A DNA stretch of 52,348 bases, taken from contig CAVAON010000003.1 in assembly GCA_963590215.1 (NCBI GenBank), forward strand, positions 1-52,348, written 5' to 3'. Below, piece after piece: positions 4,281 to 38,038 of the stretch. Each line of letters opens with the position of its first letter. Position 1 is the stretch's first letter. Under the pieces are notes generated by a model. The model saw only the letters and a program-made list of their open reading frames with translations, did not search any database and was not told the DNA's origin. The position numbers and the translations under genes are program-made. This DNA is from Anaerovoracaceae bacterium (GTDB lineage: Bacteria > Bacillota > Clostridia > Peptostreptococcales > Anaerovoracaceae).

Positions 4281-4325
4281 GTATATATAGCAGGAAAATT
4301 TATAAGAATAATATATACAATATGT

Positions 4326-4362
4326 GAGCCTTGGAAATGATTCTGAGGCTCTGTTATTTTTT
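4326..4362 (+). terminator. intrinsic terminator after glxK
   Basis: GAGCCT (4326-4331) / AGGCTC (4346-4351) stem followed by TGTTATTTTTT. Confidence 0.6.
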
Positions 4363-4385
4363 GCAGATAAAAGCAAAGTGTGATA

Positions 4386-4413
4386 TTGAAAATTTATTTG
4401 ATAGTAGTATAAT
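4386..4413 (+). promoter_or_regulatory. sigma-A type promoter of the TetR operon
   Basis: TTGAAA (4386-4391), 16-nt spacer, TATAAT (4408-4413). Confidence 0.6.
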
Positions 4414-4419
4414 AGTGTT

Positions 4420-4435
4420 GTGAATGATTGTTCAC
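4420..4435. promoter_or_regulatory. inverted repeat GTGAA-N6-TTCAC, candidate TetR operator
   Basis: Dyad lies immediately downstream of the -10 box and upstream of the probable TetR start codon (4448). Confidence 0.4.
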
Positions 4436-4447
4436 GAGAGAGGAATT

Positions 4448-5074
4448 ATGTATAAAAAATTAGATGATGAAATTTTGAATAATATACTTGAGTCCGGTAT
4501 TAATGAGTTTGTAGACAAGGGGCTTGGCGGTGCAAGCATGAGAAGCATTGCCCGGCGCGCAGGTGTCAGTGTCGGAGTAATATACAAATATTACAGCGAC
4601 AAGGATAGCTTTTTCAGAGCCTGCCTTGCTCACAGCCTGCAGCTTTTAGACAGGGTGCTTGCAGATGCTGTAAATGAAGAGGACGATATTGACGTATGCA
4701 TCAGAAATATAGTATATGCCCTTGTCAGAAATTCAGAGCAGCATTCAAATTACAATGCTATGTACAACGAAATAACATCGGGGAGCTGTAGAATCTATGC
4801 CGCAGAGTTTGCAAAAGAGATAGAAATAAGGTCAGCTAAGGTATACAGATGCCTTATAGCTAAAGCACAGGAACAAGGAAGAATTTCGAAAGAGATAGAT
4901 AGCGGCACCCTGGCGTTTTTCTTTGACAATCTGCTGATGATGCTGCAGTTTTCACTGAGCTGTGGATATTACAAAGAAAGAATGAAAATCTTTTGTGGAG
5001 AGAGTACGGACAAAGAAGATATTGCTGAATATATGATAACTTTTATTGAAAAAGCACTGACTAAGGAGGCATAG
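4448..5074 (+). CDS. TetR/AcrR family transcriptional regulator
   Basis: N-terminal HTH SMRSIARRAGVSVGVIYKYYSDKDSFF. The ORF track starts at 4424; the ATG at 4448 has a GAGAGAGG purine tract upstream. Confidence 0.85.
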   Translation: MYKKLDDEILNNILESGINEFVDKGLGGASMRSIARRAGVSVGVIYKYYSDKDSFFRACLAHSLQLLDRVLADAVNEEDDIDVCIRNIVYALVRNSEQHSNYNAMYNEITSGSCRIYAAEFAKEIEIRSAKVYRCLIAKAQEQGRISKEIDSGTLAFFFDNLLMMLQFSLSCGYYKERMKIFCGESTDKEDIAEYMITFIEKALTKEA

Positions 5075-5075
5075 T

Positions 5076-6668
5076 ATGTATGTAATTGCTTATGATATAG
5101 GCACGACAGGACTCAAAACCTGCCTGTATTCCATAGAGGACAGGGTAAGTCTTGTGGCGGGTGCTTACCAGGATTATGATTTATATATCCTTGAAGGCGG
5201 TGGTGCGGAGCAGGATGCAGACCAGTGGTGGGATGCCATGTGCAGCACTACTCAAAAGCTAATAGGGCAGACAAAAATCGCTCCCGAAATGATTAAGGGA
5301 TTGTCATTCTGCTCACAGATGCAGGGACTTGTGCTTGCAGATGAGAAGGCAAATGCACTTAGAAGACCTATGAGCTATATGGATCAGCGAGCTTCGAAGG
5401 TTATGAAATCTGTGCAGGGCAGGGGCATTACAGTTTCGGGAGTGAACATTGTGAAGCTCATTAAATCCCTTGTGATAACCCATGCAGCTTCTACAAGTGT
5501 CAAGGATCCGCTGTGGAAATACAAATGGGTTGAGGCAAATGAGCCGGAAGTATTCAGGAAAGTTCACAAATGGCTTGATGTCAAAGAATACCTCATAGCA
5601 AGATGTACAGGCAATTTTGTTATGACAAAGGACTCCGCATATTCGACATTTCTTTATGATACCCGCAAAGGCAAAGAGGGCTGGAGCAAAACACTTTGCA
5701 GGTCATACGGTATTGATATGGGGCATCTTCCAAAGGTCATATCGTCTACCGATGTTGCAGGAACTCTGACCGAAAAAGCTGCTGAGCAGCTTGGGCTTGC
5801 CGCAGGCACTGCCGTATACGGCGGAGGCGGGGACGCCACTTTAATAGGTCTTGGCGCTGGCTGTACCCGGGCAGGACAGACACATATATACTGGGGAACC
5901 TCGGGCTGGGTTGAAACAATCACAGACAGGCAGTATGTGGATATAGTTTCGATGATAGCAGCCATTATGAATGCGGAGGATGGCAAATACAACTACTTCG
6001 CCGAAATGGAAACTGCAGGTAAATGCTTTGAATGGGTCAAAAACCATCTGGCGCTTGATGAGATAGGAATATATTTAAGAAAAACAGATGTTGCGGACAA
6101 CATAGAGGGCATATACGAAAGCCTTTATGATTATCTGTCAGAAGTTATATCAGAGGTTCCGGCAGGTGCCGGAGGCGTGATATTCACCCCCTGGCTTCAC
6201 GGCAACCGCTGTCCTTTTGAAGATCCTTCAGCTGCAGGTATGTTTTTTAACATAGGAATTGAAACAGGCAAGAAACAGATGATAAGAGCAGTTGTTGAGG
6301 GAGTTTGTTATCATCTCAGATGGATGCTGGAGTGTCAGGAAAAAAAGATAAAGACATCACAGACTGTCAGATTTGCAGGCGGCGGTGCCCTGTCAGATGT
6401 CACATGCCAGATACTTGCAGACATTACAGGCAGAAGAATACAGACTGTAGCCGATTCCAAGGATGTAGGCTCTGCAGGGGCAGCAATCCTCGCAGGAGTA
6501 GGAGCGGGAGTGATACCCGGCTTTGACAGTGTTGCGGAGTATATACCGGCAGAAAAAACATTTGAACCTGATGAAGGTCTCAAAGCTGTCTACGAAAGGA
6601 ATTATCAGGTATTCAGACAGCTTTACAGTAATAACAAAAAAAGTTTCAGGATTTTGAACGGAGAGTAG
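5076..6668 (+). CDS. FGGY-family carbohydrate kinase
   Basis: 530 aa. N-terminal YVIAYDIGTTGLK and C-terminal GGGALS/GAAILAG motifs are typical of xylulokinase/glycerol kinase-like FGGY kinases. Confidence 0.85.
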   Translation: MYVIAYDIGTTGLKTCLYSIEDRVSLVAGAYQDYDLYILEGGGAEQDADQWWDAMCSTTQKLIGQTKIAPEMIKGLSFCSQMQGLVLADEKANALRRPMSYMDQRASKVMKSVQGRGITVSGVNIVKLIKSLVITHAASTSVKDPLWKYKWVEANEPEVFRKVHKWLDVKEYLIARCTGNFVMTKDSAYSTFLYDTRKGKEGWSKTLCRSYGIDMGHLPKVISSTDVAGTLTEKAAEQLGLAAGTAVYGGGGDATLIGLGAGCTRAGQTHIYWGTSGWVETITDRQYVDIVSMIAAIMNAEDGKYNYFAEMETAGKCFEWVKNHLALDEIGIYLRKTDVADNIEGIYESLYDYLSEVISEVPAGAGGVIFTPWLHGNRCPFEDPSAAGMFFNIGIETGKKQMIRAVVEGVCYHLRWMLECQEKKIKTSQTVRFAGGGALSDVTCQILADITGRRIQTVADSKDVGSAGAAILAGVGAGVIPGFDSVAEYIPAEKTFEPDEGLKAVYERNYQVFRQLYSNNKKSFRILNGE

Positions 6669-6671
6669 ATT

Positions 6672-7592
6672 ATGGATACAGCAAAAGCACAGGAGCAGGT
6701 TGCAGCAACAGGCAGACAGCTTCTTGATATGGGGCTTGTGGCAAGAACATGGGGCAATATATCATGCAGAGTGGACGAAAACCACTGCGCTATAACTCCC
6801 AGCGGACTTGATTACAGACAGATGAAAGCAGAGGATACAGCAGTTCTGGATATTGAGTCAGGAGAATGGCAGGGAAATCACAAACCATCGGGTGAAAAGG
6901 GCGTGCACATGGCAGCTTACAGACAGTTCTCCGATGCAGGATTTGTAATACACACCCACCAAAGCTATGCAACAGCAATAGGCCTTTCAGGCTTTGACAG
7001 CCTTGATATTACAGAAGAAGAAACAGAGACTCTGGGCGGAATAGCCCTTGCAGCTTATGGGCTTCCGGGAACAAAAAAACTGACCGGTGCAGTTACAGAC
7101 AGATTAAAAGAAGGGAATCATACGATACTTATGGCTCACCATGGAGTCCTTGTCTGTGGCAGGGACAAAGATGAGGCGATGAAACGTGTACAGCTCCTTG
7201 AAGAAATATGTGCGAGAAATCTGAAGAATTCCGGTGAGAATGGCAGAGAAGCAGTATTAAAAACAGCTGAACTTGGCAGGCCTGTATGTGCGCAGCTTGA
7301 TGATATGGCACAGATGATAGGAAGAAAAATCCCTGTTGCAGGGAGTATGGCGGAAGCAGACAGGCTTTTGCAGAAATACAATGCTGTAATTGTAAAAGGT
7401 GACGGTATTAAAGTCAGGGCAGACAGCGAAGATGACAGAGAAGCTCTAAAGATGCTCGTTGAAAAAGCCTGCATCTGCCACTTGCATACGTTAGAGGAAG
7501 CCTCACATACAAGGCTTGGTGTGTTTGACGTAATGCTGATGAACATAGTTTACAAGACAAAATACTCTAAACAAAAGAATGGAGAAAGATAA
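6672..7592 (+). CDS. class II aldolase/adducin-domain protein with C-terminal extension
   Basis: TWGNISCR...ITPSG...HTHQSYA...MAHHGVLVCG motifs of class II (metal-dependent) aldolase/epimerase/decarboxylase fold, plus about 110 extra C-terminal residues. Confidence 0.8.
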   Translation: MDTAKAQEQVAATGRQLLDMGLVARTWGNISCRVDENHCAITPSGLDYRQMKAEDTAVLDIESGEWQGNHKPSGEKGVHMAAYRQFSDAGFVIHTHQSYATAIGLSGFDSLDITEEETETLGGIALAAYGLPGTKKLTGAVTDRLKEGNHTILMAHHGVLVCGRDKDEAMKRVQLLEEICARNLKNSGENGREAVLKTAELGRPVCAQLDDMAQMIGRKIPVAGSMAEADRLLQKYNAVIVKGDGIKVRADSEDDREALKMLVEKACICHLHTLEEASHTRLGVFDVMLMNIVYKTKYSKQKNGER

Positions 7593-7595
7593 AAA

Positions 7596-8054
7596 ATGGC
7601 GAACAACAAACAAAAAGAAACCGTAAGAATAATCAAATTTGTTCTGTTTTCTGCTTCTGCAGGAATAATCGAGCTGGGATCGTTCACATTGTTAAACGAG
7701 CTGACAAAGTGGAGCTACTGGCCATGCTATCTGATAGCGCTGATACTGTCGGTTTTGTGGAATTTTACTCTAAACAGGAAATTCACATTCAAATCGGCAA
7801 GCAATGTGCCGGTGGCAATGGCGAAGATATTTGCTTTTTACTGCGTGTTTACTCCGGTGACAACTATATTGGGGAATTATCTTGCAGAAGAACTGCTCTG
7901 GAATGAATACATAGTTACAGGCATCAATATGGCACTGAATATATCGACGGAATATCTGTATGACAGATTTATAGTGTTCAGAAAAACTTTAGATACAAAC
8001 AAAGCTGCACTCAAACAGCAACAAAGGGAAAACGGAGGTACTTACAATGATTAA
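7596..8054 (+). CDS. GtrA-family membrane protein
   Basis: 152 aa with four hydrophobic segments and a WNFTLNRKFTF motif characteristic of GtrA-like proteins. Confidence 0.75.
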   Translation: MANNKQKETVRIIKFVLFSASAGIIELGSFTLLNELTKWSYWPCYLIALILSVLWNFTLNRKFTFKSASNVPVAMAKIFAFYCVFTPVTTILGNYLAEELLWNEYIVTGINMALNISTEYLYDRFIVFRKTLDTNKAALKQQQRENGGTYND

Positions 8055-19227: not shown

Positions 19228-19269
19228 TAAAAAAACAGAGAGCGGCTGATATATATGGAGGTAAGCGTC

Positions 19270-21690
19270 ATGATTGATTATCAGGGAATAGCAAATGCAC
19301 TTATTGCAGATTATAGCAGTATATATCTGGCAGAGCCGGAGAAGGACACAGGCAGCATTGTCAGAATGCTCGGCTATGAGGTTGAAGGCATCAAAGATGC
19401 TCCGGAGTTTTGCTATTCTGAAATGATTCTGAAGTATGCAAATAAGCGTGTTTACGAAAAAGACCGTCAATATTTCCTTGATCATTTAAAACGGGAGAAT
19501 ATAATCAGAGCCTTTGCAGACGGCAGAGAGAGAATGGAGCTTTACTACAGAGTAGTCGAAGCTGGCAAGGCGCATTACTACAGCGCGGAATATGTCAGGA
19601 TATCAGAGCCGGATGAACCTCTGAAGTTTATCGTGGGGTTTCGCAATACTGACTTTGTTATTTCTATGCAAAGAAACACACACCAAGAGGCTTTGTACAG
19701 CGCATACAGGGCTATTTCGGATATATTTCTCTCTTTGCATAGAGTGGATGTGAAGTTAAACAGGTTTATCACCATCAAAACTATAGACAGAATTTCAAAC
19801 CTGACAATCCCGGGGAATAACGAATTTGATGCAAATATGCGAAATGTCATTTCTCTTGCAGCTGAGGCAAACCGTGAAGAAGTATTGGAGTTTATGGACA
19901 GAAGTACTCTTAACGAGCGTATGGCAGGCAAAAGTCATATTTATATCGACTGCTGGGGGCATAATACAGGGATGCGCAGGCTTCATTTCATGAGAGAGGA
20001 TAATGACGCGGACGGGAATCTGTGGCATGTTATATTCGGCATAGAGGTGATGGATGCAAACAAGAATCAGTCAATATTCAATGCACTTTCACGCAATTTC
20101 AAAAATATATATCTGGTAAATCTTAATTCAGGTACGGCAAGAGTGCTAAAGCTCGAAGATGAGTATGATACAGGCAGGCTTGAGACGGTAGGAGAAGAGG
20201 ATTTTGCGTATGAGAGTATCTTGAATGAATGGATTGCCGATGCTGTACATCCTGATGATAGAGCAAGACTCAAAACAAGTCTCAGCGCCAAAAATCTCAG
20301 AGAGATATTTTCGAAGCAGGAGGAATATACAGGCAATTACCGAATGATTGTAGGTGGCAAAGTCATCAATTATCAGTTTAATATAATCAAGATGCGTGAT
20401 GTAGGGTTTGTTGTTGCAGGATTTCAGAATATAGACAGCATTATCAATGAGCATCTCAAAGAGGAAGAAGAGCAAAGGAAAAAAGAGCAGGAATATCAGC
20501 AGAAGCTTGTTGCAGCAGCAAAAGAGGCAGAGCGTGCAAACAAAGTGAAAACAGACTTTCTGCTTCGTATGAGCCATGATATACGCACACCGCTAAATGG
20601 CATTATCGGTATGATTGATATTGCAGACAGGTTTCCCGATGATGTTCAAAAACAGGACGAATGCAGACAAAAAACAAAATATTCAGCCAAGATACTTCTT
20701 GAACTCATAAACGAAGTCCTCGATATGAACAAACTCGAATCAGGCGAAGTTGTTTTGGAAAATATTCCTTTCGACCTGGCCGATATTACAGTGGAAAGCT
20801 ATTTTACCGTTGCCAAACAGGCACAGGAAAGAGGCATAGAAATCATAGAAGAAGAAACAGATGTTGTACATCGTCACCTTATAGGGAGCCCTGCACATCT
20901 AAAACGTCTTATCATGAATATCCTGGGCAATGCTATTAAATACAACAAAGATTTCGGCAAGATTTATATTTCGTGCAAAGAAATAGACTTTGATGGAAGT
21001 ACAGCAAAAATCAGATTCAGATGCCGTGACACAGGGATAGGTATGAGCGAGGAATTCCAAAAGCATATTTTTGAGCCTTTTTCACAGGAAAATGCAGATA
21101 CACGCACACATTACAGCGGTACAGGACTTGGCATGTCTATTGCCAGGAGCCTTGCAGAAAAAATGGGAGGCGAGCTTACCTTTGAAAGTACAAAAGATGT
21201 TGGCTCAACATTTGAATTTGTAATACCTTTCAGGGTGAATCTGTCAGCAGATTCTGAAGAAGCAAAAGAAGCAGCACAGGACAGCTACAGTATCAGTGGC
21301 ATGAACATAATATTGGCAGAGGATAATGAACTCAACATGGAAATTGCAGAATTTCTCCTCAAAGATGCAGGAGCAGATGTCATCAGAGCATGGAATGGCA
21401 AAGAGGCTGTGGATGCTTTTATGGATTCAAAGCCTGGAGATATTGATGCAATTATTATGGATGTTATGATGCCTGTTATGAACGGATATGAGGCTGCACG
21501 TATGATTAGGGGTGCTGATAGACCTGATGCAAAGAAAATCCCTATAATTGCGATGACTGCGAATGCATTTGTAGAAGACAAAATAGCCACACAAAATGCA
21601 GGCATGAATGAGCATATTTCAAAACCGATTAATACAAAGGAACTGATAAGGACTATTGCAAAGTTTGCAAAACAACCTGCAAACGGATGA
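19270..21690 (+). CDS. soluble hybrid sensor histidine kinase/response regulator
   Basis: HisKA H-box FLLRMSHDIRTPLNGI, HATPase N/G boxes (NAIKYN, GTGLGMSI) and a C-terminal REC domain (ILAEDNELN...DVMMPVMNG). No TM segments in the N-terminal region of about 430 aa. The ATG at 19270 has GGAGG 8 nt upstream (ORF track start 19255). Confidence 0.9.
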   Translation: MIDYQGIANALIADYSSIYLAEPEKDTGSIVRMLGYEVEGIKDAPEFCYSEMILKYANKRVYEKDRQYFLDHLKRENIIRAFADGRERMELYYRVVEAGKAHYYSAEYVRISEPDEPLKFIVGFRNTDFVISMQRNTHQEALYSAYRAISDIFLSLHRVDVKLNRFITIKTIDRISNLTIPGNNEFDANMRNVISLAAEANREEVLEFMDRSTLNERMAGKSHIYIDCWGHNTGMRRLHFMREDNDADGNLWHVIFGIEVMDANKNQSIFNALSRNFKNIYLVNLNSGTARVLKLEDEYDTGRLETVGEEDFAYESILNEWIADAVHPDDRARLKTSLSAKNLREIFSKQEEYTGNYRMIVGGKVINYQFNIIKMRDVGFVVAGFQNIDSIINEHLKEEEEQRKKEQEYQQKLVAAAKEAERANKVKTDFLLRMSHDIRTPLNGIIGMIDIADRFPDDVQKQDECRQKTKYSAKILLELINEVLDMNKLESGEVVLENIPFDLADITVESYFTVAKQAQERGIEIIEEETDVVHRHLIGSPAHLKRLIMNILGNAIKYNKDFGKIYISCKEIDFDGSTAKIRFRCRDTGIGMSEEFQKHIFEPFSQENADTRTHYSGTGLGMSIARSLAEKMGGELTFESTKDVGSTFEFVIPFRVNLSADSEEAKEAAQDSYSISGMNIILAEDNELNMEIAEFLLKDAGADVIRAWNGKEAVDAFMDSKPGDIDAIIMDVMMPVMNGYEAARMIRGADRPDAKKIPIIAMTANAFVEDKIATQNAGMNEHISKPINTKELIRTIAKFAKQPANG

Positions 21691-21753
21691 TTTGGATCTT
21701 TAGACATAAGCCCGAACGATAATTGGTCGGAATACATGATAAAAAATCAGCAC

Positions 21754-21782
21754 TTGTATTTTTTAAAAGGCAAGAGTATAAT
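21754..21782 (+). promoter_or_regulatory. sigma-A promoter in front of the tandem-repeat unit
   Basis: TTGTAT (21754-21759), 17-nt spacer, TATAAT (21777-21782). Confidence 0.55.
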
Positions 21783-21807
21783 ACAGGTAGAGAAGCAAGC
21801 GCTTCTT

Positions 21808-21972
21808 AATAGAGGTTACGAAGCCTACCAAAATCGTATTAATAGAGGTTACGAAGCCTACCAAAATCGTATTAATAGAGGTTACGAAGCCTACCAAAAT
21901 CGTATTAATAGAGGTTACGAAGCCTACCAAAATCGTATTAATAGAGGTTACGAAGCCTACCAAAATCGTATT
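21808..21972. repeat. perfect tandem direct repeat, 5 x 33 bp (AATAGAGGTTACGAAGCCTACCAAAATCGTATT)
   Basis: Units at 21808, 21841, 21874, 21907 and 21940 are identical. A partial sixth copy (AATA) runs into the terminator. Unit junctions create the palindrome TATTAATA. Confidence 0.97.
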
Positions 21973-21975
21973 AAT

Positions 21976-22004
21976 AAAGGAACAGGCTGTGCCTGTTCCT
22001 TTTG
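21976..22004. terminator. bidirectional intrinsic terminator
   Basis: AAAGGAACAGGC-TGT-GCCTGTTCCTTT stem with flanking A/T runs, located between convergent units. Confidence 0.8.
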
Positions 22005-22020
22005 CTATTAATGAAGCCCT

Positions 22021-22905
22021 CTAGAATATATCTTCTATTATCTTTTCCGGTGGCGTATCGAGTCTGTCAGGATGTCTGAGACAGCTTCTCAATATTTTGA
22101 GAGTGGATGCAAAATAGTATCCGTCACAAATACGTTCATCTGTTACTACAGTATAATCCACGTATTTTCTTTTGATCACCTGGCCGTTGTCATCTATTTC
22201 GTTAACGCTTTTTTTGGCACCAAATGAAATGAATACAGGCACATTTCCAAAGTTATACAGGTGATGATAAATTGGAGGTATCCCCAGTGAGCCCATGGAC
22301 GTTATAAACATGCTGCCGTGAAAAGGGCTGACATTGAGTAAAAATTTCGGAAGGAGTCCAAAATAGTCCAGAGTTTTGAGTAACCATATCGCAAATTTCT
22401 TGATGAGCCTCGGTATATAATTTATTATTTTGGCAGTATTGTCAAAATCGCTGTCAAGATCTCCGCCTTTGTTTTCATCTATTACTGCTTTCATTTTGTG
22501 ATACACATCCTCAGCGGTATCTGTAGGTTCAAACACAATTTTGACTACAGTATCCGGGGATTCCAGTGTCATTTCTTTTTTGACATTAATATTTATTTCT
22601 ATTCTGTTTCTGGAGTATACTCTCTGTCCTGAAACAAACCTGTTCACAGCAGGTCTTTGAGAGATACATCTTACATATGAGGCTACCATAACGTGCATTA
22701 TTCCAAAGCCTTTAAGACCTGATTTTCTCTTGCGACGTATGTATTCCTCTATTTTTGAAACCTCGATACTGTCTCTGATAAAATTGCTGGCATCATTTCT
22801 CTCCACCATTATAAATGGGGTGATTTTGTGCATAGGCGTAAGAGCCCTGACCAGTCTGCCGTCACCTCTGTCGCCCAGCCTTTTTTTGTATTTTTTTTCT
22901 GGCAT
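22021..22905 (-). CDS. 2-oxoacid dehydrogenase E2 / CAT-like acyltransferase catalytic-domain protein
   Basis: 294 aa. The C-terminal ...VVTDERICDGYYFAS aligns to the DHRxxDG active-site motif of E2/CAT-fold acyltransferases, with Glu in place of His. No lipoyl or E1/E3-binding domains. Confidence 0.5.
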   Translation of the reverse strand: MPEKKYKKRLGDRGDGRLVRALTPMHKITPFIMVERNDASNFIRDSIEVSKIEEYIRRKRKSGLKGFGIMHVMVASYVRCISQRPAVNRFVSGQRVYSRNRIEININVKKEMTLESPDTVVKIVFEPTDTAEDVYHKMKAVIDENKGGDLDSDFDNTAKIINYIPRLIKKFAIWLLKTLDYFGLLPKFLLNVSPFHGSMFITSMGSLGIPPIYHHLYNFGNVPVFISFGAKKSVNEIDDNGQVIKRKYVDYTVVTDERICDGYYFASTLKILRSCLRHPDRLDTPPEKIIEDIF

Positions 22906-23092
22906 AATAAATCCTTTCCGGATACAAATATGAGCCTCGGTAATGCGAGATTTGCCAGGGCAAGATGGAAAATGCCTGCAGAAATAACTGCGGCGTATGT
23001 AAAACCATAACTTCCGGCAAACACATGTACAACAGACCGTCAGCGTATCCGATGAAGCCGGTCTGAGGCATAAGTTAAAAATGTATATATAA

Positions 23093-23120
23093 ATAATACA
23101 ATATATCTGCCGTCTGTCAA
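23093..23120 (-). promoter_or_regulatory. sigma-A promoter for the E2-like gene (long leader)
   Basis: On the minus strand: TTGACA (23120-23115), 16-nt spacer, TATTAT (23098-23093). Implies a 5' UTR of about 180 nt. Confidence 0.55.
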
Positions 23121-23144
23121 CCGGAAAACAGCAAAAAACAACTA

Positions 23145-23173
23145 TTGACAGCAGCCTCCGGCAGCAATATAAT
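23145..23173 (+). promoter_or_regulatory. sigma-A promoter of the FMN riboswitch/ribU unit
   Basis: Consensus TTGACA (23145-23150), 17-nt spacer, TATAAT (23168-23173). Confidence 0.8.
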
Positions 23174-23185
23174 AAATATATAAAT

Positions 23186-23300
23186 AATCTGTTTCAGGGC
23201 GAGGTGCAATTCCTCACTGGCGGTAAAGTCCGCGAGCCTTCGGGTTGAACCGGTGAAACTCCGGTACCAACGGTTATAGTCCGGATGGAAGAAACTAGAG
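23186..23300 (+). promoter_or_regulatory. FMN riboswitch (RFN element)
   Basis: CAGGGCGAGGTGCAATTCCTCACTGGCGGTAAAGTCCGCGAGCC...CCGGTGAAACTCCGGTACCAACGGTTATAGTCCGGATGGAAGAAAC matches the conserved RFN core. Confidence 0.9.
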
Positions 23301-23317
23301 TTGTTTTAGTTTTTTGT

Positions 23318-23342
23318 GTGCCCCGAACATCGGGGCACTTTT
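23318..23342 (+). terminator. riboswitch-controlled terminator
   Basis: GTGCCCCG-AACAT-CGGGGCAC followed by TTTT. Confidence 0.85.
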
Positions 23343-23389
23343 AATGACCTGACAGATTCCCAAAAACCAAAAGAAAAGAGGAATCAAAA

Positions 23390-23926
23390 ATGAACAACAA
23401 AAAAACAGTAAGACTTGCAAAAATGGGTATGCTTGTTGCAATATCCGTAGTACTGGCGTATTTCGTCCACTTCCCTATAATTCCCGGGCTCAGTTTTCTG
23501 GAATATGACCCGGCGGACATTTCCATATTTATAGGAACATTCGCTTTCGGGCCTCTCGGAGGTATTGCACTTACAGTAGTTACAGCTTTAATACAGGGTG
23601 TTACAGTCAGTGCAGGCAGCGGAGCATATGGTATAATAATGCATATAATTGCAACAGGAACCTTTGTATTGGTCGCAGGTAATATTTACAGGACACACAA
23701 AACCAGAAAAGGAGCTATGATATCACTCGCAGCAGGTATTATTTCATGGGTTGTGATAATGTTCTTTGCAAACCTTGTAATCACGCCACTGTTTATGGGA
23801 GTTACAAGAGATGTAGTGATGGGTATGATGCCATTAATATTGTTATTTAATTTTATCAAGGCAGGAATAAACAGCGTTATTACATTCTTTCTTTACAAGA
23901 GAATTTCGGGATTTTTACACAAATGA
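23390..23926 (+). CDS. ribU: ECF-transporter S component, riboflavin-specific (RibU-like)
   Basis: 178-aa protein with about six TM segments (5-6 clear hydrophobic stretches), directly downstream of the FMN riboswitch. AAGAGGA RBS. Confidence 0.8.
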   Translation: MNNKKTVRLAKMGMLVAISVVLAYFVHFPIIPGLSFLEYDPADISIFIGTFAFGPLGGIALTVVTALIQGVTVSAGSGAYGIIMHIIATGTFVLVAGNIYRTHKTRKGAMISLAAGIISWVVIMFFANLVITPLFMGVTRDVVMGMMPLILLFNFIKAGINSVITFFLYKRISGFLHK

Positions 23927-24354
23927 TTATCAAAAGAGAACTTCTGATTAAAAACGAAAACGAAACAAGAGAATTTGCCCTTGAACTTGCACAGGAGTTT
24001 GAGGCAGGAGATGTGCTGGCTCTGATAGGAGATCTTGGAACAGGCAAAACGGCACTTACCGGATATATTGCACAGGGGCTTGGCATCAGAGACAGTATTG
24101 TATCTCCAACCTTTACAATCGTTCGTGAATATACTGATGGCAGGTTGCCGCTTTATCACTTTGATGTCTACAGACTTGCTGATTCGGAGGAGATGCTTTA
24201 TATTGGAGCCGAGGAGTATTTTTATGACAAAGGCGGCGTATGCGTGATAGAATGGGCGGATATTGTAGAGGATATACTTCCACCGGATACCAAATATATA
24301 TATATTGAATATGGAGCTTCAGAAGGAGAAAGAATATATAGATGTACATTTTAG
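23923..24354 (+). CDS. tsaE: tRNA t6A37 biosynthesis ATPase TsaE
   Basis: GDLGTGKT Walker A and SPTFTIV...HFDVYR motifs. ATGA overlap with the ribU stop. Confidence 0.9.
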   Translation: MIIKRELLIKNENETREFALELAQEFEAGDVLALIGDLGTGKTALTGYIAQGLGIRDSIVSPTFTIVREYTDGRLPLYHFDVYRLADSEEMLYIGAEEYFYDKGGVCVIEWADIVEDILPPDTKYIYIEYGASEGERIYRCTF

Positions 24355-25058
24355 CATTAGAAAGCACAGGGCAGCATGCTTCTGTAGCTTTGACAGATGA
24401 AAAAGGCAATATAGAGGAGATTATAAACCCGGGCAGGCTCAATCATCTTGAGACTATGGTTCCGATGATTGATGAGCTCATGCAAAAATGCAAACTGCAG
24501 TTAAGCGATATGACTGCAATTGCCGCTTCTATGGGGCCAGGTTCCTTTACGGGCATCAGAATAGGCGTTACAACAGCAAGGACGCTTGCACAGGCGCTTG
24601 ATATAGAAACCATAGGTGTTCCGACTCTTGATGCATTCTGCTACAATATGAAGGATTTCAGCGGAGTAATATGCCCTGTGTTTGATGCCAGAAGAAATCA
24701 GGTGTATGCAGGTGCGTTCAGATGGAACAAAGGAGATGTTGAGACAATTTCAAAGCCGGGTGCATATATGCTTGATGAATTCCTGGAGAGCCTATCGTTG
24801 AACCATATGCAGCATATGTTCTTTGGCGACGGACTTGGAGTTTATGGGGAGAGAATACTCGAAGCAGAGCCAGATGCTGTATTCGCACCTGAGCCTGTAA
24901 GACTTCAGAGAGCATCATCTGTTGCAGCTATGGCACTTGATATATATAATAGAGAGGGCACTCAGCCTTACGGTAACCTGCTACCGCTTTACATGCGCAA
25001 GGCTGAGGCGGAGCGCAAGCTGGAGGAAAAACTCAAAAATGAGCAGACCGGTAATTAG
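24342..25058 (+). CDS. tsaB: tRNA t6A37 biosynthesis protein TsaB
   Basis: ILALESTG...GPGSFTGIRIG motifs of YeaZ/TsaB. Confidence 0.9.
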   Translation: MYILALESTGQHASVALTDEKGNIEEIINPGRLNHLETMVPMIDELMQKCKLQLSDMTAIAASMGPGSFTGIRIGVTTARTLAQALDIETIGVPTLDAFCYNMKDFSGVICPVFDARRNQVYAGAFRWNKGDVETISKPGAYMLDEFLESLSLNHMQHMFFGDGLGVYGERILEAEPDAVFAPEPVRLQRASSVAAMALDIYNREGTQPYGNLLPLYMRKAEAERKLEEKLKNEQTGN

Positions 25059-25485
25059 GCAGGCTGTATTGCATGATGCGCAGCAGATGGCAGAGCTTGA
25101 CAAGATATGCTTCAGCATTCCGTGGAGCCTTGAATCATTCATGCAGGAACTTTCGTCAAACGAGAGAGCTTTGTATTTTGTGGCCGAGATAGATGGCAGT
25201 ATTGCAGGATATGCGGGTCTCTGGCAGATATTAGATGAAGGACATATCACAAATGTGGCTGTGGCACCAAAGCTGCGCAGGCAGGGGATTGCAACCTCGA
25301 TGCTGGAATCATTTCTTGCCGAGGGCAAAAGACGCGGCATCAGAGCCTTCACCCTTGAAGTCAGAGAATCCAATACAGCCGCACAGGAGCTTTACAGGAA
25401 ATTCGGATTTCAGAGTGCAGGATATAGACCGGGATATTATGAAGACAACAAAGAAGCTGCAATGATAATGTGGCTTTGCGATTAA
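25039..25485 (+). CDS. rimI: ribosomal-protein-alanine N-acetyltransferase
   Basis: GNAT motif [20 protein letters not shown]. The ATG at 25039 overlaps the tsaB end; the ORF track start at 24922 lies inside tsaB. Confidence 0.85.
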
Positions 25486-25510
25486 TCGTTATTTGCATGG
25501 AGATGTTCAG

Positions 25511-26527
25511 ATGAAAAACAACAAAACAATAATTCTTGCAATCGAATCAAGCTGTGATGAGACATCTGTTGCAATTATGGCAGATGGCAGAGAAATACTT
25601 TCGAATATAATTTCGTCTCAGATTGAAATACATAAACTGTATGGCGGGGTGGTGCCTGAAATAGCATCAAGGCATCATCTTGAGAATATAAATGCTGTAA
25701 TAGAGCAGGCTATGACAGAAGCAGATATTACAAAAGATGATATAGATGCAATAGGCGTTACATATGGTCCGGGCCTTGTGGGAGCACTGCTTGTAGGTAT
25801 AGCTGCTGCAAAAGCGCTTGCTCTTGCCTGGAACAAACCTCTTATAGGGGTTCATCATATACAGGGCCATATTTCGGCTGCATACATAGAGCACAAAGAC
25901 CTCGAACCTCCATTTACAGCGCTTGTGGTTTCAGGTGGCCATACCAATATAGTTGAGGTTACTGACTACAACAGATGCAGAATACTTGGAAGCACCAGGG
26001 ATGATGCTGCAGGTGAAGCCTTTGACAAGGTTGCCAGAGTCATAGGCCTTGGTTATCCGGGAGGCCCCAAAATTGATAAACTCTCGGAGGAAGGCAATCC
26101 TGATGCTATAGAGTTCAAAAGAGTTTATCTTGAAAAAGGCAGTCTGGATTTTAGCTTCAGCGGCATCAAAACTGCAGTACTCAACTACGTAAATTCAGAA
26201 AAACAGGCAGGCAGAGATATTAACAGAGCTGATATTGCAGCAAGCTTTCAGCAGGCTGTCCTGGAGGTCATAGTAAACAAGGCAATCGAAGCTGCTGTAA
26301 CCTTGAACAAAGACAGACTGGTGATGGCAGGAGGAGTTGCATCAAACAGGCATCTGCGAAAGATGCTCGAAATGGCATGCAATGAAAAAGGCATCAGACT
26401 GTACTGCCCTTCTCCGGTGCTTTGTACAGATAATGCAGCTATGATCGGCACAGCAGCTTATTACAAATACAAGGCGGGAGAAACAGACGGGCTTAACCTT
26501 GATGCTTTTCCGAATCTTCCCCTGTAG
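25511..26527 (+). CDS. tsaD: tRNA N6-adenosine threonylcarbamoyltransferase TsaD
   Basis: [12 protein letters not shown]...ASRHH...[11 protein letters not shown]...HHIQGH motifs. The ATG at 25511 has GGAG 8 nt upstream (ORF track TTG at 25493). Confidence 0.95.
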
Positions 26528-26542
26528 TCAAAGGAAATGCAA

Positions 26543-28501
26543 ATGATAATATTATCAGCAAATGACATTACAAAAACATATGGGACAGACGTGATATTGC
26601 AGGACATATCATTTCACATAAACAAAGGTGATAGAGTAGGAATTATCGGCCTTAACGGTGCAGGCAAAACCACTTTGCTTAATATACTTGCAGGTGAGCT
26701 TGATGCAGATAATGGCAATGTATATATTTCGAATGATACAACTATAGGTTATCTGCGCCAGAATGACGATTTCACATCAGAAAACACTGTTATAGAAGAA
26801 ATAGACAGCATTTTTACAAAGCTTCATGAAATGGAAGAGAAGATGCCTGCTCTTTCACAGGAAATCGCAAGAGCTACTTCCTCTGGAAACAAATCTGCAC
26901 AGGAAATAGAGATTATGCTCAACAGATATGATCAGCTGCAGGAGGATTATGACAGAGCGGGTGGTTACACATACAAAGGTGAAATTAAAGGTGTGCTTTC
27001 GAGCATGGCATTTACAGAAGATGATTATGCAAAAAAAATAAGCATGCTGTCGGGAGGCGAGAGAACAAGACTTGCACTTTGCTGCCTGCTCCTCAAAAAA
27101 CCCGGCATCCTTATACTCGATGAGCCCACAAATCATCTTGATATAGGCACACTCAAATGGCTGGAGCAGTACATCAAGGCATACAGCGGCACTATCATAA
27201 TTGTGTCTCATGACAGATATTTTCTTGATCAGAGTGTAAACAGGATATTTGAAATCTCAAATCACAAATTGAGAATATATGAAGGAAACTACTCCGAATA
27301 TGCAATTAAACGCAAAGAAATACGTGAAAACGAAATAAGGGCATATCAGAAGCAGCAGACTGAAATATCAAGACAGGAAGAAATGATAAGGCGAATGAAG
27401 GAGAGAGGCACAGAAAAGCTTGCAAAGCGCGCGGCCTCAAGGGAAAAACGCCTTGAACATATCGAAAGACTCGAAATGCCTGACTCAGTGACAGGTAAGA
27501 TGAAACTTCATTTCAAAGAGAACTTCAAAAGCGGAAATGATGTTTTCATAGCTGAGGGACTGGCAAAGAGCTTCGGATACGGCCCGGAGCGTAAAGAGCT
27601 GTTTCATGATATAAACCTTGATATCAAACGTGGTGAGAGAATATGCATAGTAGGCCCTAACGGTGTAGGCAAAACTACACTTTTGAGAATTATTCTTGAT
27701 CAGCTTGAGCCTGATTCAGGCAGGATTAAAACAGGCTACAATGTGGCATTTGCATATTATGATCAGGGGCAGAGACTGCTTAACCCGGCAAATACCGTAC
27801 TTGAAGAACTCAAAGAATCATATAGACTTTATACTGATACTGAAATGCGCTCGATTCTTGGTAGATTTCTGTTCAGAAATGAAGATGTTTTCATTAAAGT
27901 AGGCTCACTTTCCGGTGGCGAAAAAGCAAGACTCTCTCTGATTAAGATAATGCTTTGCGGTGCCAATGTTCTGGTGCTTGATGAACCTACCAATCACCTA
28001 GACATTGATTCTAAAGAGGTATTTGAAGAGGCCCTTTTGGAATTCCCGGGGACGGTCATAGTTGTATCTCATGACAGATATTTTCTCAATAGGATTCCGA
28101 CCAGAATACTGGAGCTTGAAAAAGATGGGATACACGAATTCCTTGGCACATATGACTATTATATAGAAAAAAAACAGCAGATTGAATCAGGCAAAAAATA
28201 TTTAAATGAAATGTCAGCACAGGGCAGGCAGAAGGAAATATCAGGGGAAACAGATTCTGCGCAGGAACGTCGCATCAAAAAGGAGCATGAAGCGGCTAAA
28301 CGAAGGAAAGAAAGGGAGCTTTCACGTCTTGAAGAGAAAATTGCCCAACTTGAAATTTCAATAAGCGATATTGAGGAACAGATGTGTTCCGGAGAGAATC
28401 TTTCAGACCATATCAAACTTGCAGCGCTTGATGAAGAATGCCAAAAACAAAAAAAAGAGCTTGCGGCAGTTTATGACAGATGGATGGAAATTCAGGAATA
28501 A
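26543..28501 (+). CDS. ABC-F family ATPase (two ABC domains, no TM domain)
   Basis: Two Walker A boxes (GLNGAGKTT, GPNGVGKTT), two LSGGE signatures, an inter-domain linker and a charged coiled-coil C-terminus. Confidence 0.85.
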   Translation: MIILSANDITKTYGTDVILQDISFHINKGDRVGIIGLNGAGKTTLLNILAGELDADNGNVYISNDTTIGYLRQNDDFTSENTVIEEIDSIFTKLHEMEEKMPALSQEIARATSSGNKSAQEIEIMLNRYDQLQEDYDRAGGYTYKGEIKGVLSSMAFTEDDYAKKISMLSGGERTRLALCCLLLKKPGILILDEPTNHLDIGTLKWLEQYIKAYSGTIIIVSHDRYFLDQSVNRIFEISNHKLRIYEGNYSEYAIKRKEIRENEIRAYQKQQTEISRQEEMIRRMKERGTEKLAKRAASREKRLEHIERLEMPDSVTGKMKLHFKENFKSGNDVFIAEGLAKSFGYGPERKELFHDINLDIKRGERICIVGPNGVGKTTLLRIILDQLEPDSGRIKTGYNVAFAYYDQGQRLLNPANTVLEELKESYRLYTDTEMRSILGRFLFRNEDVFIKVGSLSGGEKARLSLIKIMLCGANVLVLDEPTNHLDIDSKEVFEEALLEFPGTVIVVSHDRYFLNRIPTRILELEKDGIHEFLGTYDYYIEKKQQIESGKKYLNEMSAQGRQKEISGETDSAQERRIKKEHEAAKRRKERELSRLEEKIAQLEISISDIEEQMCSGENLSDHIKLAALDEECQKQKKELAAVYDRWMEIQE

Positions 28502-37729: not shown

Positions 37730-37757
37730 TAAAACATCAGTTGAATAAGTTTTGTTT

Positions 37758-37824
37758 ACTAATATATGTTCTGTATGATGGCTGGAACGTCTCTACCACG
37801 CGCCGAAAAAAAGTGACTATTAGT
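37758..37824 (+). promoter_or_regulatory. purine riboswitch aptamer (guanine-type core, atypical P3/L2)
   Basis: P1 is ACTAATA (37758-37764) / TATTAGT (37818-37824). It aligns position by position to the xpt aptamer: J1/2 UA.., L2 ..AUGG, J2/3 GUCUCUAC, L3 CCGAAAA, J3/1 AC with C at the specificity position (37817). Only 3 of 6 P3 pairs are Watson-Crick. Confidence 0.6.
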
Positions 37825-37883
37825 TGATATGCGCAATTGCAGCCTTGTTTCAAAGGCTCGCTTTGTGTTTATTTTGTATTAGT

Positions 37884-37912: not shown

Positions 37913-37918
37913 ACTATA

Positions 37919-37990
37919 CCTGTCATAACTGACGATAAGCGGGTTACCGCAGGGGAGTGACAGGCGAAATACATGTCGATCGTCTGGGCA
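37919..37990 (+). promoter_or_regulatory. ZTP riboswitch (pfl motif)
   Basis: P1 is CCTGTCA (37919-37925) / TGACAGG (37958-37964). J1/2 is ACTGACG, P2 is CGG-GTTA-CCG, followed by conserved AGGGGAG. The 3' subdomain ends CGTCTGGGCA (37981-37990). The pseudoknot GACG/CGTC is a compensated version of the consensus GGCG/CGCC. Confidence 0.8.
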
Positions 37991-38038
37991 GACAACTATC
38001 TCATATATTAGGGATACTTGTCTGTCCTGTTGTTTTTT
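37986..38038 (+). terminator. ZTP-controlled terminator
   Basis: GGGCAGACAA (37986-37995) pairs with TTGTCTGTCC (38018-38027), followed by TGTTGTTTTTT. The 5' arm overlaps the conserved UGGGCA of the aptamer. Confidence 0.75.

What the first reader, a model, noticed from the sequence alone, without database searches (positions are those of the whole stretch)
21754..22004. Self-contained transcription unit consisting of five perfect 33-nt tandem repeats
Between the hybrid kinase gene and the convergent E2-like gene lies a promoter (TTGTAT, 17 nt, TATAAT, 21754-21782). It is followed by a 6-bp 5' hairpin (21791-21806). Next come five identical copies of AATAGAGGTTACGAAGCCTACCAAAATCGTATT (21808-21972), then a strong terminator (21976-22004). 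There are no spacers, so this is not a CRISPR array. The repeat contains no ATG/GTG/TTG. The only ORF spanning it (21736-22011, NRGYEAYQNRI x5) starts upstream of the predicted TSS and lacks an RBS. Each unit can form one of two mutually exclusive 5-bp hairpins, UACGA...UCGUA or AGGUU-ACGA-AGCCU. Each unit also carries an SD-like AGAGG, and unit junctions create the palindrome TATTAATA. Perfect identity of all copies implies very recent expansion or active homogenisation. A multi-site RNA of this kind could act as a sponge for an RNA-binding protein (as CsrB/RsmZ do). At the DNA level it could be an iteron-like array for a dimeric DNA-binding protein.
Basis: partly seen in the sequence, partly recalled or inferred. 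Interest (0 to 1): 0.65.

Follow-up and report, generated by a model that had tools for sequence, protein, structure and literature searches.

The report
Orphan ToxI antitoxin RNA array
The five perfect 33-nt repeats are the RNA-antitoxin half (ToxI) of a known type III toxin-antitoxin system (ToxIN) whose toxin gene has been deleted at this chromosomal site, so it is a known kind of element in an unusual toxin-less state.

Summary
In detail: promoter-like hexamers, a 5' hairpin, five identical 33-nt units (21808-21972) and a terminator hairpin are all present. The element is not a new RNA class. The same 33-mer, with 0-2 mismatches, occurs in about 100 public loci. In 50 of the 62 non-redundant loci with enough downstream sequence, an intact ToxN endoribonuclease gene (Pfam PF13958) starts 39-88 nt after the array. 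This is the canonical ToxIN type III toxin-antitoxin layout of promoter, repeats, terminator and toxin gene. The window has no toxN anywhere in its 52 kb. A syntenic relative, L018 (84-93% nt identity in both flanks), has the same promoter, leader, array and terminator. It also has about 630 bp holding toxN, already carrying a premature stop, between the terminator and the convergent E2-like gene. That stretch is missing here. A more distant relative, L017, is also toxin-less, with a different junction. The 5' hairpin is supported by covariation. The two "mutually exclusive" hairpins fit the two stems of an H-type pseudoknot. The 91-aa ORF is an artefact, because orthologous units carry in-frame TAA stops. 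Whether the orphan array is a relic or a trans-acting antitoxin is untested.

The parts
21754..21782 (+). Sigma-70-type promoter of the array: -35 TTGTAT (21754-21759), 17-nt spacer, -10 TATAAT (21777-21782).
   Evidence: The sequence is read. It falls below the scanner threshold because the -35 matches 3 of 6 positions. It is orthologous to the promoter of the complete toxIN locus L018. TATAAT is invariant and TTG nearly so in 19 distinct homologous leaders.
21790..21807 (+). 5' leader stem-loop (GAGAAGC-AAGC-GCTTCTT) at the start of the predicted transcript. It probably stabilises the 5' end (inferred).
   Evidence: It appears in the MFE fold. Covariation over 19 distinct homologous leaders gives 95.5% of cells paired and 6 of 7 pairs with compensatory changes. 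The covariation score is 0.55 against 0.28 in shuffles (0 of 500 reach it) and at most 0.32 in the slid controls.
21808..21972 (+). ToxI-type antitoxin array: five identical 33-nt units. A partial sixth unit (AATA) runs into the terminator.
   Evidence: The same unit (0-2 mismatches) lies upstream of ToxN genes in genome, metagenome and viral contigs.
21976..22004 (.). Intrinsic terminator hairpin. In complete loci it separates the repeats from toxN. Here it is also the only hairpin left between the array and the convergent E2-like gene, so it is probably bidirectional.
   Evidence: The fold is. It is orthologous to the toxI-toxN inter-gene terminator of L018 and to the terminator of L017. L018's second terminator, between toxN and the E2-like gene, is absent here.
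22005..22020 (.). Deletion junction: the short stretch between the terminator and the stop codon of the E2-like gene (22021-22023). In the syntenic locus L018 about 630 bp sit here, holding the RBS, toxN and a second terminator.
   Evidence: With L018 oriented like the window, L018 1-1133 aligns to window 20733-21877 and L018 1794-8000 aligns to window 22022-28239. The intervening toxN segment has no counterpart in the window. tblastn and a 48-sequence ToxN HMM find nothing in the whole window, with best E-values of 1.4 and 0.52.

Best explanation
The region is the antitoxin half of a chromosomal ToxIN (ToxN/AbiQ family) type III toxin-antitoxin locus that has lost its toxin gene.

In complete loci, one promoter drives a transcript made of a 5' stem-loop, 2-3 tandem 33-nt ToxI units and a leaky intrinsic terminator. 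Read-through of that terminator expresses toxN. ToxN, an endoribonuclease, cuts the precursor into single units. Each unit folds into a small pseudoknot and holds ToxN in an inactive ribonucleoprotein. This mechanism is established for ToxIN of Pectobacterium and Bacillus, and it is inferred here from homology.

In this window a deletion of about 630 bp removed the RBS, toxN and the toxN-side terminator. The promoter, leader, array and inter-gene terminator remain intact, and the array has been expanded or homogenised to five identical units.

The unit is most likely still transcribed as an RNA of about 215 nt, but this is inferred and not shown. With no cognate nuclease in the window, the RNA would remain unprocessed.

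The order of decay (toxin first, antitoxin left behind) is the only order that is not lethal, and this explains why such orphans arise. My best reading of its present role is a recently orphaned, largely neutral relic. It would still be able to neutralise, in trans, a ToxN of the same family arriving on a mobile element or encoded elsewhere in the genome.
For: Identity:
- ORFs translated from the same repeat run into PF13958 ToxN_toxin.
- L002 shows the full layout: promoter, 3 units, terminator, RBS and a 171-aa ToxN. That protein matches the solved ToxN structures 7d8o, 4ato and 2xd0 at E of about 4e-7 to 7e-7.
- Among 80 non-redundant arrays, 62 have at least 650 nt of downstream sequence. 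Of these, 50 have intact toxN, 7 have disrupted toxN and 5 have none. All viral-contig loci with enough downstream sequence have toxN.
- A 33-nt unit and 5.3 copies lie within the published toxIN ranges of 31-62 nt and 1.9-5.6 copies (PMC3401426).
- The published operon architecture matches (PMC5086642).

Deletion:
- L018 is syntenic on both sides (84% nt identity in the kinase gene, 93% in the E2-like gene). It has the same promoter, leader and terminator plus a toxN (PF13958, E 1.6e-37) with a TAG stop at codon 155 (154-aa product).
- No ToxN signal exists in the 52-kb window.
- L004 independently reproduces the junction.

RNA features:
- The leader hairpin covaries.
- Pairs 6-19, 11-30 and 12-29 of the unit show compensatory double changes. 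The two helices are compatible as an H-type pseudoknot.

Not coding:
- There is no start codon after the promoter.
- Orthologous units contain GCC-TAA-CAA in the ORF frame.
Against: - No expression data exist. The promoter is a consensus match with a weak -35 (3 of 6), and the terminator has only four U residues.
- Only 52 kb of the genome is visible, so a toxN elsewhere cannot be excluded. In that case the array would not be a true orphan.
- Promoter-leader identity to L018 (84%) is no higher than in the flanking kinase gene, so there is no signal of purifying selection on the orphan beyond background.
- The copy number of 5 may be an assembly estimate.
- The pseudoknot support rests on few variable positions, because the search pattern fixed 25 of the 33 positions.
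- Processing by ToxN, and antitoxic activity of this unit, have never been tested.
Confidence: 0.85

Rival explanations
1. The orphan array is selectively kept, and was expanded, as a trans-acting 'immunity' or anti-addiction RNA. It would neutralise ToxN toxins brought in by prophages, plasmids or ICEs that carry toxIN loci with the same ToxI unit. The host could then lose or resist such elements without being killed.
For: The ToxI unit is almost invariant while its partner ToxN proteins diverge to 40% identity, with a median of 51%, so broad cross-neutralisation is plausible. Complete toxIN loci with this unit sit on prophage-like viral contigs and next to recombinase and mobilisation genes. 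toxN is absent in the window and in L017 but present in L018, which is the closer relative of the window (E2-like gene 93% against 85% nt identity). The junction sequences also differ, which suggests two independent losses with the array retained. The orphan has 5 units, whereas 48 of 50 arrays next to intact toxN have 2-3. The promoter, leader pairing and terminator are all intact. There is a precedent for free ToxI-like repeats acting as antitoxin: the pseudo-ToxI of phage TE (PMC5086642).
Against: There is no excess conservation of the promoter-leader relative to the flanks. Only three lineages are available. The other orphans (L010, L037, L065) have 2 units. A tandem array can expand neutrally once stoichiometry with a toxin no longer matters. 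Retention of the terminator can be explained by its new role for the convergent E2-like gene. There are no functional data.
Confidence: 0.2
2. The array is the working antitoxin, or an extra antitoxin dose, for an intact toxN located elsewhere in the same genome, outside this 52-kb window.
For: Multiple type III loci per genome are documented (PMC3401426). The array looks fully expressible. Nothing in the window excludes this reading.
Against: In every complete locus seen, toxN is 39-88 nt downstream of its own array. In the genome-collection scan, each genome that was hit contributed only one array locus, including the toxin-less L017 genome. Synteny with L018 shows that the toxin belonging to this array was at this site and was deleted.
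Confidence: 0.12
3. The repeats encode a small repeat protein or multi-core peptide precursor (NRGYEAYQNRI x5, the 91-aa ORF at 21736-22011).
For: The frame is open through all five units. Gene callers predict similar ORFs in other assemblies.
Against: The ATG lies upstream of the conserved promoter, has no RBS, and no start codon follows the -10 box. The N- and C-termini of the predicted homologues are unrelated, and two are fusions into toxN. Units in the orthologous loci L017 and L018, and in L014, L037 and L045, carry TAA in this frame. Two other frames are equally open. Conservation follows RNA pairing. Cloned type III antitoxins act as RNA (PMC3401426).
Confidence: 0.01
4. The array acts as a Csr/Rsm-like RNA sponge for a global RNA-binding protein, or as a DNA iteron array bound by a local regulator.
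For: It is a multi-site repetitive RNA with its own promoter and terminator. Unit junctions form the palindrome TATTAATA.
Against: There is no Rfam family match at gathering thresholds, and only noise at E up to 10. Homologous arrays are tied to toxN rather than to any regulator or replication gene, and they occur in many unrelated contexts. The adjacent kinase has PAS, HisKA, HATPase and REC domains but no DNA-binding domain.
Confidence: 0.02

Closest known systems
ToxI/ToxN (ToxIN) of Pectobacterium atrosepticum pECA1039 and Bacillus thuringiensis pAW63; AbiQ/antiQ of Lactococcus lactis (type III TA, ToxIN family)
   Same: The layout is the same: a single promoter, short tandem direct repeats (here 33 nt x 5.3; family range 31-62 nt and 1.9-5.6 copies) and an intrinsic terminator. 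Homologous arrays are followed by a PF13958 ToxN gene whose product matches the solved ToxN structures. The unit can form two short interleaved helices, like the H-type ToxI pseudoknot.
   Different: No toxN follows the array in this window; it has been deleted. The unit sequence is unrelated to ToxI of Pectobacterium or Bacillus at the primary-sequence level. This subfamily has a conserved 5' leader hairpin. I did not find that hairpin described in the two papers consulted.
Pseudo-ToxI of Pectobacterium phage TE (free ToxI-like repeats that neutralise ToxN)
   Same: Both are ToxI-type tandem repeats without an adjacent toxin gene, with copy number changed by repeat expansion. Pseudo-ToxI is known to suppress ToxN in trans (PMC5086642).
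   Different: Pseudo-ToxI is carried by a phage and acts as a counter-defence. The array here lies in a bacterial chromosome between housekeeping-type genes and arose by loss of the cognate toxN. No orphan arrays were seen in viral contigs for this unit family.
Orphan (solitary) antitoxins and chromosomal anti-addiction modules of type II TA systems (from my own knowledge, e.g. chromosomal ccd of Erwinia protecting against F-plasmid ccd)
   Same: In both, an antitoxin is left without its toxin after TA decay, and it could neutralise homologous toxins arriving on mobile elements.
   Different: Type II orphan antitoxins are proteins. Here the antitoxin is a repetitive RNA, and the trans-protection is untested.
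CsrB/RsmZ-type protein-sequestering sRNAs
   Same: Both are RNAs with several repeated binding sites for one protein.
   Different: No Rfam match was found. The ligand inferred from homology is a toxin nuclease that also cleaves the RNA, not a translational regulator.

Membership tests
Type III toxin-antitoxin, ToxIN family (ToxI antitoxin array) | Short tandem direct repeats (published toxIN range 31-62 nt, 1.9-5.6 copies) | tested here: met
   33 nt x 5.3 copies. Published ranges are from PMC3401426.
Type III toxin-antitoxin, ToxIN family (ToxI antitoxin array) | Repeat sequence homologous to arrays that precede bona fide ToxN genes | tested here: met
   An identical or near-identical unit lies 39-88 nt upstream of intact PF13958 genes in 50 of 62 informative non-redundant loci.
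Type III toxin-antitoxin, ToxIN family (ToxI antitoxin array) | Single promoter upstream of the repeats | tested here: inconclusive
   TTGTAT-17-TATAAT is present. The -10 box is invariant in 19 homologous leaders. The -35 is weak, and there are no transcript data.
Type III toxin-antitoxin, ToxIN family (ToxI antitoxin array) | Rho-independent terminator directly after the repeats | tested here: met
   A 9-12 bp hairpin followed by TTTT. It is orthologous to the toxI-toxN terminator of L018.
Type III toxin-antitoxin, ToxIN family (ToxI antitoxin array) | Toxin gene (ToxN/AbiQ endoribonuclease) immediately downstream in the same operon | tested here: not met
   The terminator is followed after 16 nt by the stop codon of a convergent 2-oxoacid_dh-like gene. 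There is no ToxN signal in the whole window (tblastn best E 1.4, HMM best E 0.52). The locus is therefore the antitoxin component only, not a complete ToxIN system.
Type III toxin-antitoxin, ToxIN family (ToxI antitoxin array) | Each unit folds as an H-type pseudoknot with single-stranded tails | tested here: inconclusive
   Helices 6-8/17-19 and 11-14/27-30 are interleaved and 92-94% paired. Three pairs show compensatory double changes (0 of 500 shuffles reach this). Most positions are invariant, and the sample is biased by the search pattern.
Type III toxin-antitoxin, ToxIN family (ToxI antitoxin array) | Precursor is processed by ToxN into single units that inhibit it | not testable with these tools
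   This requires co-expression and cleavage assays.
Type III toxin-antitoxin, ToxIN family (ToxI antitoxin array) | Antitoxin region has no translatable ORF | tested here: met
   There is no start codon downstream of the promoter. Orthologous units carry an in-frame TAA.
CRISPR array | Repeats separated by unique spacers of similar length | tested here: not met
   The units are head-to-tail with no spacers.
Csr/Rsm-type sponge sRNA | Match to a described family model | tested here: not met
   No Rfam hit at gathering thresholds. Only sub-threshold noise appears at E up to 10.
Replication iterons | Repeat array adjacent to a replication initiator gene or origin | tested here: not met
   The neighbours are a hybrid histidine kinase and an E2-like acyltransferase. 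Homologous arrays are linked to toxN instead.

The most novel reading that the evidence does not exclude
Chromosomal toxin-less ToxI arrays may be a recurrent, selectively retained class: RNA 'vaccines' that pre-empt ToxN toxins of circulating prophages and plasmids. This would be an RNA analogue of anti-addiction modules. They would arise by independent toxN deletions (window lineage and L017 lineage) and be boosted by repeat expansion (5 units here against the usual 2-3). Toxin-centred surveys of type III systems cannot detect them, so their frequency (5 of 62 informative loci here) has gone unnoticed.
Probability: 0.2. Interest if true: 0.65.

Novelty: new member of a known kind. Interest (0 to 1): 0.4.

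Why it matters
The finding turns an apparently novel repeat RNA into a recognisable element, the ToxI antitoxin of a ToxIN abortive-infection/addiction module that is widespread in gut and rumen Clostridia and their prophages. The unusual part is the toxin-less state. It gives a clean natural example of ordered TA decay: toxN carries a premature stop in one relative and is deleted in two others, while the array is retained. It also shows that published type III surveys, which start from the toxin protein, cannot see such orphans. If orphan arrays neutralise incoming ToxN, they would influence which mobile elements can addict a host and whether ToxIN-based phage defence works there. For annotation, the conserved promoter, leader hairpin and 33-nt unit could seed an RNA family model. 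Rfam has no match for this array.

Tried and rejected
- Rfam searches, at gathering thresholds on the whole window and at E up to 10 on 21650-22060, gave no relevant family.
- A metagenome scan with a terminator-specific pattern, meant to collect more orthologous loci, returned nothing.
- I looked for more orthologous loci through the E2-like protein. The abundant sister lineage (P0145, about 92% aa identity) has a different neighbour on that side (a 78-aa ORF plus a two-component system) and no array. It gave neither an 'empty site' nor extra orphans.
- The exact E2-like protein of the window is on record only on a 1.3-kb contig.
- L017's upstream region is masked (N at 235-670). Its far-left flank is unrelated to the window's kinase gene, so the L017 promoter could not be compared.
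- I tried to place the deletion endpoints by comparing the 10-12 nt junctions of the window and L017 with L018. The matches are too short to be decisive, so I report only that the junctions differ.
- My guess that the ORF after the L065 array is Panacea-like was not supported, with no Pfam hit.
- Literature searches for chromosomal orphan ToxI arrays, and for the unit sequence itself, found nothing. The supplement of PMC3401426, which lists consensus repeats, is not held. I therefore could not check whether this unit was already catalogued in 2012.

Full report
**1. Observation**

- Window 21808-21972 holds five identical head-to-tail copies of AATAGAGGTTACGAAGCCTACCAAAATCGTATT. There is no other copy in the 52 kb, and none is expected by chance. 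TRF reports 21806-21980, period 33, 5.3 copies.
- TTGTAT-17 nt-TATAAT lies at 21754-21782, and a 6-7 bp hairpin at 21790-21807.
- The array is followed by a hairpin with a GC-rich 9-bp stem (extendable to 12 bp) and then TTTT (21976-22004).
- The consensus scanner listed neither the promoter nor the terminator. The -35 matches TTGACA at only 3 of 6 positions, and part of the T run can pair into the stem. On their own these would be weak calls. Their support comes from the homologous loci described below.
- The whole predicted RNA folds better than shuffles (z = -4.4), but that is expected for any repeat with internal complementarity.
- Rfam has no family for it.

**2. What it is**

- I searched the protein database with the 91-aa ORF purely as a handle on the repeat. 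This returned metagenomic ORFs carrying the same RGYEAYQNRIN repeat. Two of them run on into Pfam PF13958, the ToxN toxin of type III toxin-antitoxin systems.
- Contig L002 shows the complete canonical layout: TTGACA/-10 promoter, three copies of the same 33-mer, a terminator hairpin, an RBS and a 171-aa ToxN. That protein matches the solved ToxN/AbiQ-family structures 7d8o, 4ato and 2xd0.
- A degenerate two-unit pattern found 25 loci in species-representative genomes. They span Lachnospiraceae, Oscillospiraceae, Christensenellaceae, Synergistes, Fusobacteriaceae and others. The same pattern found 52 loci in metagenomes and 19 in viral contigs.
- After removing duplicates there are 80 arrays, 62 of them with at least 650 nt of downstream sequence. 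Of these 62, 50 have an intact toxN starting 39-88 nt after the array on the same strand, 7 have a disrupted toxN and 5 have none.
- The unit length and copy number lie inside the published ranges for the toxIN family: 31-62 nt and 1.9-5.6 copies (PMC3401426).
- The published operon architecture is a single promoter, repeats, a Rho-independent terminator and then the toxin gene (PMC5086642). This matches.
- The array is therefore a ToxI-type antitoxin array.

**3. The toxin gene is missing here, by deletion**

- In the window the terminator is followed after 16 nt by the stop codon of a convergent 294-aa 2-oxoacid-dehydrogenase-like gene (22021-22905, minus strand). Upstream lies a hybrid histidine kinase (19255-21690).
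- tblastn with ToxN, and an HMM built from 48 distinct ToxN proteins, find nothing in any frame of the window (best E 1.4 and 0.52).
- Locus L018, an uncultured Clostridia MAG, is syntenic on both sides. When oriented like the window, its bases 1-1133 align to window 20733-21877 and its bases 1794-8000 align to window 22022-28239. Identity is 84% in the kinase gene, 84% in the promoter-leader and 93% in the E2-like gene.
- L018 has the same TTGTAT/TATAAT promoter, leader hairpin and terminator, but only two units. Between its terminator and the E2-like gene lie an RBS, a toxN (PF13958, E 1.6e-37) and a second terminator. That stretch of about 630 bp has no counterpart in the window.
- L018's toxN carries an in-frame TAG at codon 155, which leaves a 154-aa product lacking the last 17 or so profile positions. 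The toxin is therefore already decaying in that lineage.
- A more distant syntenic relative, L017 (E2-like gene 85% identical), is also toxin-less: array, terminator, then the convergent E2-like gene. Its junction is ATGGAGATTC, against TAATGAAGCCCT in the window.
- The toxin-bearing L018 is closer to the window than L017 is. Two independent toxN losses are therefore the most parsimonious history. With three lineages this remains an inference.
- An independent Logan contig (L004) reproduces the window's terminator/E2-like junction exactly and breaks inside the repeat. The junction is real, but the copy number of five cannot be verified from short-read assemblies.

**4. RNA anatomy**

Promoter and leader:
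- Among 19 distinct homologous leaders the -10 TATAAT is invariant and the TTG of the -35 is nearly so.
In those leaders 95.5% of cells are paired and 6 of 7 pairs show compensatory changes. The covariation score is 0.55, against 0.28 in shuffles (0 of 500 reach it) and at most 0.32 when the partner is slid.
- I infer that the hairpin protects the 5' end of the precursor. This is not tested.

Repeat unit:
- I compared 60 distinct unit variants. Positions 7-10, 13-15, 17-18 and 23-28 are invariant.
Together they make an H-type pseudoknot with an A-rich third loop, which is the fold reported for ToxI.
- Three pairs change on both sides: A6-U19 to G-C, A11-U30 to G-C in two unrelated loci, and C12-G29 to U-A. 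No shuffle in 500 reaches three such pairs.
- The extension pairs 9-16 and 10-31 are not maintained.
- This support is modest, because the search pattern itself fixed 25 of the 33 positions.
- The ToxN cut site cannot be deduced. If the pseudoknot lies within one genomic unit, as the co-located double changes suggest, the cut should fall in the A/U-rich linker (positions 31-33 plus 1-5).

**5. The ORF is not a gene**

- Its ATG lies upstream of the conserved promoter and has no RBS. No ATG, GTG or TTG follows the -10 box.
- The predicted 'homologues' have unrelated ends or are fusions into toxN.
- The orthologous units of L017 and L018, and units of L014, L037 and L045, read GCC-TAA-CAA in that frame.

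**6. How it most likely works now**

What is shown: the array is the ToxI component of a ToxIN locus, its toxN is absent from this site and from the window, and all cis elements for making the RNA are intact.

What is inferred: it is still transcribed, and without ToxN the RNA is not processed.

- A toxin-antitoxin pair can only decay toxin-first, so orphan antitoxins are the expected end state. The series seen here fits that order: a nonsense codon in L018, frameshifts or truncations in L001, L011, L016, L048, L049 and L071, and complete loss in the window, L017, L010, L037 and L065.
- I therefore favour a recently orphaned, largely neutral relic that remains competent as an antitoxin in trans.
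- Several observations keep a functional reading open, at my estimate of about 0.2:
  - toxN appears to have been lost twice while the array was retained;
  - the orphan has five units, whereas 48 of 50 arrays next to intact toxN have two or three;
  - the unit is almost invariant while partner ToxN proteins diverge to 40% identity (median 51%), so one array could cover many toxins;
  - complete loci with this unit sit on prophage-like contigs and next to recombinase and mobilisation genes.
- Observations against the functional reading:
  - promoter-leader identity to L018 equals that of the flanking kinase gene;
  - tandem arrays expand neutrally;
  - the terminator may be retained simply because the deletion removed the E2-like gene's own terminator.

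**7. Comparison with what is known, and novelty**

- The family (ToxIN type III TA) is well known, and this is a new member of it.
- Free ToxI-like repeats that suppress ToxN are known from phage TE escape mutants.
- I found no paper describing chromosomal toxin-less ToxI arrays. The main survey started from toxin proteins and looked for repeats within 1 kb, so it could not have found them.
- The unit sequence does not appear in the searchable literature. The relevant supplementary table is not held, so prior cataloguing of the unit cannot be excluded.

**8. Verdict**

- Interest is moderate. This is a known kind of element in an informative, under-surveyed state.

Noticed in passing
window 23186-23300 (+), 23390-23926 (+): An FMN riboswitch (108.6 bits) lies directly upstream of a 178-aa membrane protein. 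Homologues of that protein in sister contigs hit ECF_trnsprt/ECF-ribofla_trS, so it is a riboflavin ECF S-component under riboswitch control.
   Followed up: no
window 37740-37839 (+) and 37915-37996 (+): A purine riboswitch (46.8 bits) and a ZMP/ZTP riboswitch (60.7 bits) lie on the same strand only about 75 nt apart. They may form a tandem two-ligand arrangement ahead of one operon.
   Followed up: no
All array loci (L001-L116); statistics: The 33-nt ToxI unit is almost invariant, while the adjacent ToxN proteins diverge to 40% identity (median 51%). The RNA appears far more constrained than its protein partner, although the search pattern biases the sample towards conserved units.
   Followed up: partly
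L001 3721-5423: A TnpB/Cas12f1-like gene ends about 180 nt upstream of a 4-unit array. The usual promoter and leader are replaced by unrelated GC-rich sequence, possibly the transposon's 3' end or guide RNA region. The toxN there is truncated after about 67 residues.
   Followed up: no
L065 (reverse orientation) array 214-279, ORF from 306: A ToxI-like array, including unit variants with a 1-nt insertion (GGTTTACG), is followed by an RBS and a 219-aa ORF with no Pfam hit and no similarity to ToxN. This may be a different partner protein or a replacement event.
   Followed up: partly
L037 array 986-1051, ORFs at 1110 and 1288: A 2-unit array without toxN is followed by two small ORFs. The second has weak, sub-threshold RelE/YafQ similarity, which suggests a TA island in which toxN was replaced.
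   Followed up: partly
L018 (reverse orientation) 1179-1643: The syntenic relative's toxN has an in-frame TAG at codon 155 (154-aa product), and homologous sequence continues after the stop. The toxin is therefore decaying in that lineage as well.
   Followed up: yes
window 21976-22020 versus L018 (reverse orientation) 1710-1793: The deletion that removed toxN also removed the hairpin between toxN and the convergent E2-like gene. The toxI terminator is now the only terminator-like hairpin for the E2-like gene, and on the minus strand it is followed by UUUAUU.
   Followed up: partly
L088-L097 and L082-L087: In the most abundant sister lineage (E2-like protein about 92% identical), the side of the E2-like gene that holds the array here is occupied instead by a 78-aa ORF and an HK/RR pair. 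The 3' end of the E2-like gene is therefore a synteny breakpoint.
   Followed up: partly
L017 235-670: The stretch upstream of the orphan array in this genome record is masked as N. The remaining left flank (1-234) is unrelated to the window's kinase gene.
   Followed up: partly
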